Positions 11,720-35,261 of a stretch of 64,000 nt of DNA are shown in pieces. The stretch spans positions 8,970-72,969 of the forward strand of contig JBJOII010000003.1 in assembly GCA_046047235.1 (NCBI GenBank). Direction: 5' to 3'. Origin of the DNA: Verrucomicrobiota bacterium (GTDB lineage Bacteria > Verrucomicrobiota > Verrucomicrobiia > Limisphaerales > JAHDYP01). Under the pieces are notes generated by a model. That model worked only from the letters and a program-made list of their open reading frames with translations, had not been told where the DNA came from and made no database searches. The number at the start of each line of letters is the position of its first letter. Within the stretch, counting starts at the first letter, position 1. Position numbers and translations under genes: made by a program.

Positions 11720-11850
11720 GGGACGGAACTTACGCCCGCCAACCAAAGCCGCCAAGCCGCTTTGTCACCCCTCGCGCAGCGCCCGTCCCCCCCGACCCTG
11801 CCGGAGTTTCGGAGTTTCAGTGTTTCGGAACACCGGTAAACCGGCAGCCC

Positions 11851-11899
11851 TCTCCCCTCTCCTCTCTCCTCTCTCCCTGCGGCCCGTCCTCGGGCCGCA
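11851..11899 (+). repeat. Polypyrimidine tract plus hairpin module (TGCGGCCCG-tcct-CGGGCCGCA)
   Basis: TCTCCCCTCTCCTCTCTCCTCTCTCCC followed by a perfect 9-bp stem. The same architecture occurs at 24453, 30679 and 62755. Confidence 0.85.
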
Positions 11900-11903
11900 A
11901 GAG

Positions 11904-11959
11904 CCCTCAGCCCTCAGCCCTCAGCCCTCAGCGCTATGCGCTTGCCGCACAGCGCTTGG
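11904..11959 (+). repeat. Phased heptamer tract of 8 units (CCCTCAG x4, CGCTATG, CGCTTGC, CGCACAG, CGCTTGG)
   Basis: Read directly from the sequence. It lies in the divergent ppk2/protease promoter region. Confidence 0.85.
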
Positions 11960-11996
11960 CCCAGAATGCCCCTTGACCCATCCCACACCTGCATCC

Positions 11997-24407: not shown

Positions 24408-24452
24408 AAGCCTGAGGTCAAAGTCCGGCGGTCAGCCACGCAAATCCCCCAG

Positions 24453-24495
24453 CTCCTCTCTCCCCCCTCCCTGCGGTCCACCACGCGGACCGCAG
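24453..24495 (+). repeat. Polypyrimidine tract plus hairpin module (CTGCGGTCC-accacgc-GGACCGCAG)
   Basis: CTCCTCTCTCCCCCCTCCC followed by a perfect 9-bp stem. Confidence 0.85.
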
Positions 24496-24524
24496 CACCC
24501 CTCTGCGCTTGCCGCTTTGCCTCC

Positions 24525-24673
24525 CCATTCATGTATGGCTTGTGTTCATGCGGATACCCCTACGAACCGCGTTCGCCCCACGGTATAACCGCATGAATAG
24601 TCCACACATGAATAAACCCATCCCGGCACCGACTCCGGCCATTCATGTATGGCTGCGTTCATGCGGACACCCC
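24525..24673 (+). repeat. Pair of direct repeats of about 35 bp (24525-24560 and 24639-24673) flanking a 54-nt imperfect hairpin (24545-24598)
   Basis: CCATTCATGTATGGCT(TGTG/GCG)TTCATGCGGA(T/C)ACCCC occurs twice. TTCATGCGG/CCGCATGAA, ATACC/GGTAT and CGAAC/GTTCG form nested stems. Confidence 0.75.
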
Positions 24674-24745
24674 ACAGGACCCCTGCCGGTGTTTCCGTGT
24701 TTCACTGTTTCAGAGCATGAACCAGAGCACGCCTCAGCGCACAGC

Positions 24746-24882
24746 GCTGCTGCCCCATCGAAATCGCTATCGGGATCGCTATCGGGATCGAATGCTGAAG
24801 TTCCCAGTCGCAGGACGCAGGATACCGGATAGCGAAGATCGGACATCGCCCCGAGCGACCGAAGACCCGAGGCGCGCTTCCC
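24746..24882 (+). repeat. 137-bp dispersed repeat, copy A
   Basis: Aligns without gaps to 51569-51705 with 5 mismatches by hand count. It contains (ATCGCTATCGGG)x2. A short related piece lies at about 17240-17290. Confidence 0.9.
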
Positions 24883-24972
24883 GCTTGCCGCTTTGCCCTC
24901 AGCCCTCCGCCCTCCGCCCTCCGCCCTCAGCCCTCCGCCCTCAGCGCTATGCGCCTACCGCTTGCCGCCCCT
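24875..24972 (+). repeat. Phased heptamer tract of 14 units (CGCTTCC CGCTTGC CGCTTTG, then CCCTCAG/CCCTCCG x7, then CGCTATG CGCCTAC CGCTTGC CGCCCCT)
   Basis: 98 nt in perfect 7-bp register. The tract ends on the stop codon (24971-24973) of the REC-HD-GYP gene. Confidence 0.85.
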
Positions 24973-33218: not shown

Positions 33219-33255
33219 AGGGCGCGTGTTCCCCACGGAATACGCGCCCTTTTTC
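33219..33255 (+). terminator. Intrinsic terminator of the DHS-like gene
   Basis: AGGGCGCGT GTTCC-ccac-GGAAT ACGCGCCCT forms a 14-bp stem (one G-U pair) with a tetraloop, followed by TTTTC. It starts 20 nt after the TAA at 33197-33199. Confidence 0.8.
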
Positions 33256-33269
33256 ATCGTACCCCCCCA

Positions 33270-33388
33270 CGCCTACCACTTCGCGCTTCGCCCTCAGCCC
33301 TCAGCCCTCAGCCCTCAGCCCTCAGCCCTCAGCCCTCAGCCCTCTGCGCTTCCCGCTTCCCGCTTCCCGCTCTGCGCTCAGCGCCCCG
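33270..33388 (+). repeat. Phased heptamer tract of 17 units (..CGCTTCG, CCCTCAG x7, CCCTCTG, CGCTTCC x3, CGCTCTG, CGCTCAG, CGCCCCG)
   Basis: 119 nt in perfect 7-bp register. The CCCTCAG x7 block is at 33291-33339. Confidence 0.88.
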
Positions 33389-33421: not shown

Positions 33422-33442
33422 CTTGGGACGTTCTACGTCCCA
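33422..33442. repeat. Hairpin module CTTGGGACG-ttcta-CGTCCCA
   Basis: The 21 nt are identical to 9903-9923, and the preceding GCGCGCCGC(A/G) is also shared. Confidence 0.88.
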
Positions 33443-33455
33443 GCAGCGCCACAGA

Positions 33456-33474
33456 AATTCGCCGCAGGCGAATT
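33456..33474. repeat. GCA-triloop hairpin (AATTCGCC-GCA-GGCGAATT) abutting the ClC stop codon
   Basis: 8-bp perfect stem. The adjoining 13 nt GCGAATTCCTCAG (33468-33480) are identical to 10226-10238. Confidence 0.85.
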
Positions 33475-33476
33475 CC

Positions 33477-35261
33477 TCAGTCTTCCTGCGCAGCTGCCAC
33501 CTGCGTCTGTGCCCTCAGCAGGTCGTGCAGGGTGACAATCCCAATCGCCTTCCCCCCCGGACGATCCACCAGAACCACCAGCCCCGTAGAGGAATCAATC
33601 AACAACCGCTGCAGACGCCGAATGGAATCCTTGGGCAGACAGGTCGGCACCTGCTCCAGCTGGGGTTCCCGCGATTCCCGCGTGGCCTTCTCCACCTCCT
33701 CACGCGCCAGCACCCCTTTCAGCTCGCGATCGATCACCACCGGAAACCTCTCGTAAGGATGATCGCTCAGGGTCGCCTTGATCGCCGCCGGATCGAGATC
33801 CTTCACCAGCGCGGGCTTGAAATTGGCAATCGCAGATACCGGCAGCTGCTGCCATTCCGTCAGGTCACGCGGCGGCCGCACATGCTCGACCTCGTGTCCG
33901 TCCTGCTCAAGTAAGGCCTCATAAAAGTTGTGCTTGTTGAAACGACGACTGATCCACGAGCTGACCAGCGCACCCAGCATCAGGGCCGGCACGAGCGTAA
34001 ACTCATGGGTCATCTCGAACACTATCAGGATGCCGGTCACCGGAGCCCAAACCACCGCCCCCAAGCACGCACTCATCCCCACCACCACCAACGTCAGCAC
34101 ATCCGCCGCAGGCAACTGAAACTCCACACCAAATACCTTCCCCGCCTCAGTCAATCCCCCCGCTATCACCAAACCCGTCATCCCCCCAAAAAACAACGTC
34201 GGCGAAAAAATACCCCCGCAACCGCCCGTCCCGTAACAAGCCACGGTCGCAATGAATTTGGCCAGCAACAACAGCAAGGCCATCTTCCACATCAACCCGC
34301 CCCCCAACGCCGCAGTCAGATCATCATAACCCAGACCAAAGACACCCAACCGCCCCTTCCCATCCTCAGCAATCATCGCGGTCGTCACATACACCGCAAT
34401 GCCCAGCATCCAGGTAATCAACGCTCCCACCGCCGGAAAGGCCCACGAGTTGCCAAAACGCCAGCCACGCGACCGCTTCCGCAACCGCAGGCAGCTGCGC
34501 TGGAATTGCACACCCACAAGACTCGCAATCAACGCCACCAAGGGCGTCAGGGCATACCCCTGATACGACGGGCCAGACAGGTTCTGCGGCAGCTGGAACG
34601 CCGGATCCGGGCCAATGATTCCGTGCACCATGAACGCGCCCAGCACCGAGGCAAAAAGAATGCTGCCCAAAAAGCGGCTGTTCAGATCCCCAATGATCTC
34701 CTCCATTACAAAAGTGATCGAGGCCAGCGGCGTGTTGAATGCCGCCGCCAAACCGGAAGCCGCACCCGAAGCCGCGCTCTCCCGCCGCTTCTGCTTGGGT
34801 TCACCAAACAAGGCCGCAAGGTTCGACCCCAGCGCTCCCGCCAACTGCACGCTCGGACCTTCACGCCCCAAACTGGCCCCTCCGCCAATGCTCAGCACGC
34901 CCGCCAGAAACTTCACCCAAACCACCCTGAACGGCACATGCCCAAACTCCTTCCAGAACGCCAGCTTCAGCTGCGGAATACCACTGCCCGCCGCCTCAGG
35001 ACAGAACCGGCGCAGCAACCAACCCGAGACCAATGAGGTCGCCACAATAATCGCCAGACTGGTCGTGGCAAACTCGCGAAAGGAAACGGTCTCGGAGTAG
35101 GCAAAGAAATGGATGCCCCACTCAAACAGCAGGTTCATCGCGATCTGGAACACCACCGTCACGAGTCCAGCCGCCAAACCGTAGATGCATACCAGCAGGA
35201 TCGCCCGCGCCCCCTTCGGAAGCCGGTGGATCTGTTGACGCAACAGGTTCAGCAAAACCAT
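33477..35261 (-). CDS. ClC-family chloride channel/antiporter with C-terminal CBS pair
   Basis: Selectivity motifs GSGIPQ, GREGP and GGIFSPTLFFG, followed by two CBS-like repeats. Confidence 0.9.
   Translation of the reverse strand: MVLLNLLRQQIHRLPKGARAILLVCIYGLAAGLVTVVFQIAMNLLFEWGIHFFAYSETVSFREFATTSLAIIVATSLVSGWLLRRFCPEAAGSGIPQLKLAFWKEFGHVPFRVVWVKFLAGVLSIGGGASLGREGPSVQLAGALGSNLAALFGEPKQKRRESAASGAASGLAAAFNTPLASITFVMEEIIGDLNSRFLGSILFASVLGAFMVHGIIGPDPAFQLPQNLSGPSYQGYALTPLVALIASLVGVQFQRSCLRLRKRSRGWRFGNSWAFPAVGALITWMLGIAVYVTTAMIAEDGKGRLGVFGLGYDDLTAALGGGLMWKMALLLLLAKFIATVACYGTGGCGGIFSPTLFFGGMTGLVIAGGLTEAGKVFGVEFQLPAADVLTLVVVGMSACLGAVVWAPVTGILIVFEMTHEFTLVPALMLGALVSSWISRRFNKHNFYEALLEQDGHEVEHVRPPRDLTEWQQLPVSAIANFKPALVKDLDPAAIKATLSDHPYERFPVVIDRELKGVLAREEVEKATRESREPQLEQVPTCLPKDSIRRLQRLLIDSSTGLVVLVDRPGGKAIGIVTLHDLLRAQTQVAAAQED

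What the first reader, a model, noticed from the sequence alone, without database searches (positions are those of the whole stretch)
33291..33339. CCCTCAG arrays are canonical G-quadruplex / i-motif sequences, always G-rich on the minus strand
(CCCTCAG)7 at 33291-33339, (CCCTCAG)4 at 11904-11931 and (CCCTCAG/CCCTCCG)7 at 24896-24944 read as GGG-N4-GGG-N4-GGG-N4-GGG on the minus strand. That satisfies the standard G3+N1-7 quadruplex rule. The plus strand carries the matching C3 runs with i-motif potential. Two arrays would lie in the 3' UTR RNA of minus-strand genes (ClC, REC-HD-GYP). The third sits between the divergent ppk2 and protease starts, 66 nt upstream of the protease ATG. A structural role in transcript 3' end formation, stability or promoter control is plausible but untested.
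Basis: partly seen in the sequence, partly recalled or inferred. Interest (0 to 1): 0.45.

Follow-up and report, generated by a model that had tools for sequence, protein, structure and literature searches.

The report
Strand-locked G-rich heptamer microsatellites
The CCCTCAG runs are real and match the textbook G-quadruplex pattern, but they are one unit type of a genome-wide family of 7-base microsatellites whose uniform strand follows this bacterium's extreme chromosome-wide G/C asymmetry. Nothing computed here points to selection for a quadruplex role.

Summary
OBSERVATION: confirmed. All three arrays lie where stated, and the named flanking genes are correct.

CONTEXT: The genome is a Limisphaerales (Verrucomicrobiota) MAG. 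It holds 341 exact 7-nt arrays of at least 3 copies, against 43 of period 6 and 2 of period 8. CCCTCAG is the commonest unit, with 113 arrays.

STRAND: "Always minus strand" is a local effect. Every gene in the window, on either strand, has a + strand GC skew of about -0.1 to -0.47. Genome-wide, the G-rich strand of heptamer arrays matches the local skew sign in 417 of 459 cases. Where flanking genes disagree with the skew, arrays follow the skew 20:2.

G4 POTENTIAL: It is formal and moderate. G4Hunter gives 1.29, 1.29 and 1.53. A single-stranded DNA G4 is predicted, but the RNA G4 ties with a hairpin.

NO SIGN OF SELECTION FOR G4:
- There is no peak at four units.
- The middle G of the tract varies as much as the most variable loop base.
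- 42% of arrays lack a G3 run.
- G4 motifs are fewer than composition predicts.
- The arrays are absent at both assembled orthologous sites in a congener.

WHAT THEY ARE: modules of ordered mosaics (pyrimidine tract, hairpin, CCCTCAG, CGCTNNN). They obey the placement rule reported for Xanthomonas and Nostoc heptamers (Rehm 2015). The scan has met this repeat class before on other DNA. This is a new member of a known kind.

The parts
33290..33344 (-). Site 1: (CCCTCAG)x7.9 array, reading CTGAGGG on the G-rich minus strand. It lies between the convergent deoxyhypusine synthase (+) and ClC (-) genes, 132 nt past the ClC stop.
   Evidence: TRF; sequence; Pfam
33347..33371 (-). Adjoining (CGCTTCC)x3.6 array, the R module that follows the CCCTCAG module on the C-rich strand.
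   Evidence: TRF; module order S>R 53:9 genome-wide
33219..33255 (+). Intrinsic terminator of the plus-strand deoxyhypusine synthase gene (14-bp stem plus T run). It lies before the array and is conserved in the congener.
11902..11932 (-). Site 2: (CCCTCAG)x4.4 array between the divergent PPK2 (-) and Trypsin_2/PDZ protease (+, ATG 11997) genes. It is absent at the orthologous site of the same-genus genome.
11848..11899 (-). Site 2 partner modules: a CCCTCTC-type pyrimidine heptamer tract (11848-11877), then a 9-bp GC hairpin (11878-11899). Both are kept in the congener.
   Evidence: order P>S 20:0
11933..11960 (-). Site 2: degenerate CGCNNNN units (R-like) after the CCCTCAG array.
   Evidence: sequence
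24895..24945 (-). Site 3: mixed CCCTCAG/CCCTCCG x6.9 array, 26 nt downstream of the REC-HD_5 (HD-GYP type) stop codon. It is flanked on both sides by CGCTNNN units.
24408..24970 (.). Site 3 whole spacer. It is a mosaic of dispersed modules: pyrimidine tract plus hairpin, two CATTCATG-type copies, a GTGTTTC octamer array, an ATCGNN hexamer array, and R, S and R heptamers.

Best explanation
The CCCTCAG arrays are the commonest unit type of a lineage-specific family of intergenic heptanucleotide microsatellites. They sit as modules in ordered mosaic repeat blocks. On the C-rich strand the order is: pyrimidine heptamers, GC hairpin, CCCTCAG, CGCTNNN.

Shown here: the copy number of arrays decays geometrically. 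Arrays are gained or lost between congeners. Their G-rich strand is the G-rich strand of the chromosome arm. This genus has an extreme replication-type asymmetry (GC skew about 0.3 overall and 0.5-0.67 at four-fold sites), and array composition (skew 0.62) falls in the same range.

Inferred: arrays grow and shrink by replication slippage. The G-rich strand is the leading strand. The GGG-N4 spacing, and so the formal G4/i-motif potential, is a by-product of that composition and the 7-nt period, not a selected regulatory device. The G-rich strand may still fold into a moderate G4 when single-stranded.
For: - Period-7 excess, with CCCTCAG the top unit.
- Arrays are 86% non-coding.
- Exact runs of CTGAGGG number 68, 33, 22, 15, 11, 5, 3 for 2 to 8 copies, with no peak at 4.
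- In adjacent opposite-strand gene pairs the shared + strand skew has mean absolute value 0.30, while the strand-specific part is 0.033.
- The array G-strand equals the local skew sign in 417/459 cases. Where tandem genes disagree with the skew, arrays follow the skew 20:2.
- Skew at four-fold sites is +0.49 and -0.67, against 0.62 for arrays.
- A G3 run occurs in 476/814 arrays and 55/132 unit types, against 49% expected from array composition. Genome PQS number 2918, against about 4600 in block shuffles.
- The middle G of the tract is changed in 11.2% of units and the most variable loop position, T, in 11.4%.
- The congener lacks the arrays at both assembled orthologous sites.
- Ordered modules: P>S 20:0, S>R 53:9, same orientation 235:18.
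- The same 5'-neighbour polarity as in Rehm 2015.
- A leading-strand bias of G4 motifs that tracks GC skew is a general bacterial pattern (PMC12581993).
Against: - Units with a G3 run give slightly longer arrays (median 4.7 against 4.1 copies, p=2e-4; without the CCCTCAG family p=0.045). They also show a stronger sense-strand bias (145/179 against 66/101). Some G-tract-linked effect is therefore not excluded.
- Blocks lie close to stop codons (43% within 30 nt on the G-strand 5' side), which could reflect a 3'-end role.
- Slippage alone does not explain how one unit reached more than 100 loci, or why module order is fixed.
- My gene calls come from a crude home-made caller.
- The origin and terminus are not mapped in this fragmented MAG.
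Confidence: 0.7

Rival explanations
1. Functional G-quadruplexes. The G-rich strand folds as RNA in the 3' UTRs of ClC and REC-HD-GYP, or as DNA near the protease/ppk2 promoters, and sets transcript ends, stability or promoter activity.
For: - The formal PQS rule is met. G4Hunter is 1.29-1.53 and a single-stranded DNA G4 is favoured.
- A related heptamer folds in K+ with T1/2 of 50 C.
- In tandem spacers the G-rich strand is the sense strand in 211/280 arrays, and in 44/52 for this unit.
- Arrays with G on the sense strand lie a median 44 nt from the stop.
Against: - The sense bias disappears once GC skew is controlled (20:2 for skew).
- There is no four-unit preference.
- The central G is as variable as the most variable loop base.
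- 42% of arrays in the same family lack G3 yet share placement and orientation.
- PQS are depleted relative to composition.
- The arrays are missing at orthologous sites in the congener.
- The RNA G4 is not clearly favoured over hairpins.
- Rehm et al. could not identify a regulatory role either.
Confidence: 0.1
2. Dispersed mobile mosaic (REP/BIME- or MITE-like). The ordered block of pyrimidine tract, hairpin, CCCTCAG and CGCTNNN is copied to new spacers by a strand-specific, replication-coupled machinery such as a Y1 (IS200/RAYT-type) transposase. The heptamer modules then expand locally.
For: - Module order and orientation are fixed (20:0, 53:9, 235:18).
- The same unit occurs at more than 100 loci.
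- Whole spacers are replaced between congeners.
- Five Y1_Tnp genes are present.
- Orientation is tied to the replication strand. From my own knowledge, this is also known for single-strand transposition.
Against: - No heptamer array lies within 2.5 kb of any Y1_Tnp gene.
- Modules come and go separately: at site 2 the congener keeps the tract and hairpin but lacks CCCTCAG.
- No terminal repeats or target duplications were seen.
Confidence: 0.12
3. Polar transcription insulators. Read from the C-rich strand the arrays give C-rich, G-poor RNA, which is ideal for loading Rho. They would therefore stop antisense or head-on transcripts that run toward the adjacent gene.
For: C-rich RNA arises only from transcription moving toward the nearest gene (polarity). 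The composition is 52% C and 12% G on that strand.
Against: In this genome all head-on transcripts are already C-rich (69% C at four-fold sites), so the arrays add little. The arrays are not conserved between congeners. There are no transcript data.
Confidence: 0.05

Closest known systems
G-rich heptameric SSRs GGGAATC (Xanthomonas) and GGGGA(C/T)T (Nostoc PCC 7120), Rehm et al. 2015, PMC4692102
   Same: The unit is 7 nt with a G3+ tract and loops of about 4 nt. There are hundreds of mostly intergenic arrays. Arrays lie closer to the ORF on the 5' side of the G-rich strand, whatever that ORF's orientation. Length and sequence vary widely between close relatives. No regulatory role has been identified.
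   Different: There is no peak at four units here. Arrays are not depleted between divergent genes. Rehm found no leading/lagging preference, whereas here 91% of arrays are locked to the G-rich chromosome strand. Here many unit types coexist in a fixed order with hairpins.
Leading-strand bias of G4 motifs in bacteria with strong GC skew (Quadrupia, PMC12581993)
   Same: The strand of G4-type motifs tracks the GC skew.
   Different: The skew here is far stronger (about 0.3 overall). The motifs concerned are microsatellites.
Cyanobacterial STRR heptamers and Beggiatoaceae TAACTGA intergenic direct repeats (PMC4679880; STRR from my own knowledge)
   Same: They are abundant intergenic tandem heptamers of unknown function.
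   Different: TAACTGA cannot form a G4. The phyla differ, and no fixed mosaic order is reported for them. I did not test these comparisons.
E. coli REP/BIME mosaic elements (my own knowledge)
   Same: They are ordered mosaics of short modules with hairpins in spacers after stop codons.
   Different: BIMEs are not built of microsatellites. A link to a Y1/RAYT gene was tested here and not found.
Inverted heptamer arrays bracketing a 23S_rRNA_IVP (PF05635) gene
   Same: The same CTGAGGG unit lies next to PF05635 genes in two metagenome contigs, bracketing the gene in one of them.
   Different: The three arrays here are direct, single-orientation arrays with no such gene. G000 has no PF05635 match above the cut-off.

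Membership tests
G-rich heptameric SSR class (Rehm et al. 2015) | Tandem 7-nt unit holding a G3+ tract | tested here: met
G-rich heptameric SSR class (Rehm et al. 2015) | Genome-wide abundance with a strong non-coding bias | tested here: met
   113 exact arrays, or 125 by TRF. 117 of 814 heptamer arrays are in called genes, which cover 87% of the genome.
G-rich heptameric SSR class (Rehm et al. 2015) | Clear preference for four units | tested here: not met
   Monotonic decay 68, 33, 22, 15, 11, 5, 3
G-rich heptameric SSR class (Rehm et al. 2015) | Arrays lie closer to the ORF on the 5' side of the G-rich strand, irrespective of ORF orientation | tested here: met
   start/start 108 against 239 nt; stop/stop 27.5 against 174 nt (rule quoted)
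G-rich heptameric SSR class (Rehm et al. 2015) | Under-represented between divergent ORFs | tested here: not met
   122 of 540 classified arrays (23%), against 24% of intergenic length. The gene calls are crude.
G-rich heptameric SSR class (Rehm et al. 2015) | Oligos fold into a G4 in K+ (CD, melting) | not testable with these tools
   Prediction only: a single-stranded DNA G4 at -8.4 to -18 kcal/mol is favoured.
G-rich heptameric SSR class (Rehm et al. 2015) | Repeats are transcribed | not testable with these tools
Canonical putative quadruplex sequence | At least four G3+ tracts with loops of 1-7 nt; G4Hunter at or above 1.2 (lenient) or 1.5 (strict) | tested here: met
   The regex is met at all three sites. 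G4Hunter means are 1.29, 1.29 and 1.53, so only site 3 passes 1.5.
i-motif stable near neutral pH | Long C tracts (about 5 or more; my own knowledge of Wright et al. 2017) | tested here: not met
   The C tracts are 3 long. Rehm's C3 Xanthomonas strand gave only an ambiguous signal.
REP/BIME elements mobilised by RAYT | Repeats flank or cluster with a Y1 transposase gene | tested here: not met
   There are five Y1_Tnp loci, and none has an array within 2.5 kb.
Heptamer-hairpin cassette with 23S_rRNA_IVP gene | Two inverted arrays bracketing a PF05635 gene | tested here: not met
   Adjacent arrays share orientation 235:18. G000 has no PF05635 match above the cut-off.

The most novel reading that the evidence does not exclude
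A strand-specific, replication-coupled process lays down and extends these ordered mosaics; selection on transcripts does not. The mosaics grow from the gene on the 5' side of the G-rich strand. Folding of G3-containing units on the exposed lagging-strand template makes those units expand more. Xanthomonas, Nostoc and this Limisphaerales genus share the same polarity rule, which would then point to one general, still unknown mechanism behind bacterial heptamer repeats.
Probability: 0.15. Interest if true: 0.6.

Novelty: new member of a known kind. Interest (0 to 1): 0.25.

Why it matters
The result removes a tempting inference. In a genome with GC skew near 0.3, a shared strand and a match to the G4 rule carry almost no information about function.

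It also extends the unexplained G-rich heptamer repeat class to Verrucomicrobiota. It reproduces the odd 5'-neighbour placement rule in a third phylum. It adds two features worth following: a fixed module order, and locking to the replication strand.

If a common generating mechanism exists, this genus, with its hundreds of arrays and extreme strand asymmetry, would be a good place to look for it.

Tried and rejected
1. RAYT/Y1 transposase link: five Y1_Tnp genes were found, but none lies within 2.5 kb of any array.
2. Known RNA families: there is no Rfam match in the window at gathering scores, nor at E<=1 in the site 1 spacer.
3. Four-unit preference as a G4 signature: absent.
4. G3 enrichment among units: 58% of arrays and 42% of unit types, against 49% expected.
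5. Population copy-number variation at site 1: the junction pattern gave no metagenome hit.
6. Orientation flip at an origin: only one contig (C8) shows a skew switch, and it has too few arrays. The dnaA contig C15 has uniform skew and no arrays.
8. My first gene caller mis-called the protease region. I replaced it and checked the result against Pfam.
9. Intrinsic terminators: the only terminator-like site beside any of the three arrays belongs to the plus-strand deoxyhypusine synthase gene. A second, weak 5-bp match lies inside that gene. No terminator-like site was found at sites 2 and 3.

Full report
OBSERVATION

- (CCCTCAG) x7.9 lies at 33290-33344.
- (CCCTCAG) x4.4 lies at 11902-11932.
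- Mixed CCCTCAG/CCCTCCG x6.9 lies at 24895-24945.

The flanking genes are also as stated (Pfam).
- Site 1 lies between convergent genes: deoxyhypusine synthase (+, ends 33199) and a ClC/CBS channel (-, stop at 33477).
- Site 2 lies between divergent genes: PPK2 (-) and a Trypsin_2/PDZ protease (+, ATG 11997, 66 nt from the array end).
- Site 3 ends 26 nt from the stop of a REC-HD_5 regulator (-).

The arrays are far from chance. The genome (5.14 Mb, 261 contigs, 60% GC) has 341 exact period-7 arrays of at least 3 copies, against 43 of period 6 and 2 of period 8. CCCTCAG is the top unit, with 113 arrays. TRF gives 814 period-7 arrays, of which 125 have this unit.

ORGANISM

The nearest public record to the deoxyhypusine synthase locus is a Limisphaerales (Verrucomicrobiota) MAG. 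Its contig has the same number (141 in the record's accession, C141 in the handle) and the same length (9802 bases) as the same-genus genome G001's contig that holds the orthologous locus, so I take the two to be one genome.

WHY THE SAME STRAND

The window's + strand has GC skew of -0.18 to -0.39 in every 4-kb bin. Every gene in it, on either strand, has a + strand skew of roughly -0.1 to -0.47, apart from one short 83-codon call at -0.01.
- Across 619 adjacent opposite-strand gene pairs, the shared skew component has mean absolute value 0.30. The strand-specific component is only 0.033.
- At four-fold degenerate sites the skew is +0.49 for genes whose sense strand is the G-rich strand, and -0.67 for the others. 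71% of genes have the G-rich strand as sense strand.
- The G-rich strand of heptamer arrays equals the local, repeat-masked skew sign in 417 of 459 arrays on contigs of at least 20 kb.
- In tandem spacers the G-rich strand is the sense strand in 211/280 arrays, and in 44/52 for this unit. But where the flanking genes disagree with the skew, arrays follow the skew 20:2.

So "always G-rich on the minus strand" means only that the whole window lies on one chromosome arm. In the window, 12 of 13 heptamer arrays share that strand. Genome-wide, the four-copy pattern hits both strands, 141 and 85 times.

One contig (C8) shows a skew switch with genes diverging from it. Together with T>A on the G-rich strand, this suggests that the G-rich strand is the leading strand. 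That step is inferred.

The extreme skew is specific to this genus. At the same locus in 80 relatives the median absolute skew is 0.03, and G001 has -0.19. A leading-strand bias of G4 motifs that tracks GC skew is already described for bacteria (PMC12581993).

G4 AND I-MOTIF POTENTIAL

G4Hunter means are 1.29, 1.29 and 1.53, so only site 3 passes the stricter 1.5 threshold.

ViennaRNA with quadruplex terms gives these energies:

| Molecule | Site | With G4 (kcal/mol) | Without G4 (kcal/mol) |
|---|---|---|---|
| Single-stranded DNA | 1 | -9.0 | -2.0 |
| Single-stranded DNA | 2 | -8.4 | -0.6 |
| Single-stranded DNA | 3 | -18.0 | -1.9 |
| RNA | 1 | -16.0 | -15.9 |

So a G4 is favoured in single-stranded DNA. 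As RNA, site 1 is a tie with a slipped hairpin. With 40-nt flanks, the site 2 RNA MFE contains no G4.

Rehm et al. measured T1/2 of 50.4 C in 100 mM KCl for the analogous (GGGAATC)3GGG. Their C3 complementary strand gave an ambiguous signal. From my own knowledge, C3 tracts are too short for i-motifs near neutral pH.

TESTS FOR SELECTION ON THE G4 PROPERTY

All five tests were negative or weak.
1. Exact run lengths decay monotonically (68, 33, 22, 15, 11, 5, 3 for 2 to 8 copies), with no peak at four. Rehm's repeats do show such a peak.
2. Within 123 CTGAGGG arrays, the middle G of the tract is altered in 11.2% of units, mostly to C. The most variable loop position, T, is altered in 11.4%. In Rehm's control, a change at the second G abolished the G4 signal.
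3. 338 of 814 arrays (42%) have units without a G3 run. G3 occurs in 55/132 unit types and 58% of arrays, against 49% expected from array composition.
4. The genome has 2918 PQS against about 4600 in 500-nt block shuffles. Only 254 of them lie in heptamer arrays.
5. In G001 the flanks are 86-92% identical. Yet the site 1 spacer is replaced by other repeats with no CCCTCAG. At site 2 the pyrimidine tract and hairpin are kept, while (CCCTCAG)4 and part of the following units are missing. At site 3 the G001 assembly breaks.

Two weak signals point the other way. G3 units give slightly longer arrays (median 4.7 against 4.1 copies, p=2e-4; p=0.045 without the CCCTCAG family). They also show a stronger sense-strand bias.

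WHAT THE ARRAYS BELONG TO

Flank listings and adjacency counts show ordered mosaics. On the C-rich strand the order is: CCCTCTC-, CCCATCT- or CCCAGCT-type tracts, then a GC hairpin, then CCCTCAG, then CGCTTCC/CGCTTAC/CGCTCTG.
- The pyrimidine tract precedes CCCTCAG 20:0.
- CCCTCAG precedes CGCTNNN 53:9.
- Neighbouring arrays share orientation 235:18.

All three sites fit this order. The site 3 spacer is a 560-nt mosaic that also holds octamer and hexamer arrays and two copies of a dispersed module.

Blocks lie closer to the gene on the 5' side of the G-rich strand, whatever that gene end is. For start/start spacers the distances are 108 against 239 nt. For stop/stop spacers they are 27.5 against 174 nt. 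43% of 5' ends that face a stop lie within 30 nt of it. This is the rule Rehm et al. describe for Xanthomonas and Nostoc.

Three things differ from their repeats. There is no four-unit peak. There is no depletion between divergent genes (23% of arrays against 24% of intergenic length). And there is strong locking to the replication strand, where they saw none.

MECHANISM

Shown: a period-7 microsatellite family, geometric length decay, turnover between congeners, orientation equal to the chromosome skew, and composition matching neutral sites.

Inferred: growth and shrinkage by replication slippage. The formal G4 pattern is a by-product of a G-rich strand and a 7-nt period.

Not explained: why the period is 7 nt, how one unit reached more than 100 spacers, why module order is fixed, and the 5'-neighbour polarity.

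A REP/BIME-like mobile mosaic is the main rival. The genome has five Y1_Tnp genes, but none lies near an array, and modules are gained or lost separately.

WIDER OCCURRENCE

(CCCTCAG)5 occurs in at least 120 metagenome contigs. The 80 I analysed have GC of 0.39-0.74 and low skew. There the array strand does not follow the locus skew (23 of 49), and arrays often form inverted pairs. In two of these contigs a PF05635 (23S rRNA intervening-sequence protein) gene lies next to such arrays, and in one of the two the arrays bracket it. This reproduces an association noted earlier in this scan on other DNA.

LIMITS

- Gene calls come from my own codon-usage caller, which I checked by Pfam only around the three sites.
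- The genome is a fragmented MAG, and 157 arrays lie at contig edges, so the counts are lower bounds.
- No Rfam family matches these spacers.

VERDICT

But the arrays are a new member of a known, functionally unexplained repeat class. The strand argument is accounted for by genome composition.

Noticed in passing
whole window 1-64000 and genome G000: There is an extreme replication-type strand asymmetry. GC skew is about -0.3 on the + strand in every 4-kb bin. Four-fold sites show +0.49 and -0.67, and both gene orientations share the skew. It is seen in the same-genus G001 (-0.19) but not in 79 other relatives at the same locus (median absolute skew 0.03). I found no paper on it.
   Followed up: partly
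window 11848-11960, 24447-24970, 33290-33378; genome-wide: Heptamer arrays of different units stand in a fixed order with a GC hairpin: pyrimidine tract, hairpin, CCCTCAG, CGCTNNN (20:0, 53:9, same orientation 235:18). The block end on the 5' side of the G-rich strand hugs the neighbouring gene, whatever that gene end is.
   Followed up: partly
L109:288-952 and L125:389-1123 (metagenome contigs): In two unrelated metagenome contigs a 23S_rRNA_IVP (PF05635) gene lies next to arrays of the same CTGAGGG/CCTCAGC unit. In L109 inverted arrays bracket it. Several other contigs have the two inverted arrays back to back.
   Followed up: partly
window 33423-33444; L004 2120-2160 and 2400-2440 (G001): A small hairpin module (GGGACGT-TCT-ACGTCCC type), usually preceded by GTTTCGGA-type octamer repeats, recurs at unrelated spacers in both genomes of the genus.
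   Followed up: no
window 33455-33476: A 9-bp hairpin with a GCA loop lies flush with the ClC stop codon. It is a more likely 3'-end structure for ClC than the heptamer array 132 nt further on. No T run follows it.
   Followed up: no
G000 contigs C37, C57, C112 and others: 157 of 814 heptamer arrays lie at contig edges, and the G001 assembly breaks at the site 3 spacer. These repeats evidently fragment short-read assemblies, so the counts are lower bounds.
   Followed up: no
G000:C15 (50 kb, holds dnaA) and C8: The dnaA contig has uniform skew of +0.3 and no heptamer arrays at all. C8 has a skew switch near 48-50 kb with genes diverging from it, and is a candidate origin region.
   Followed up: partly
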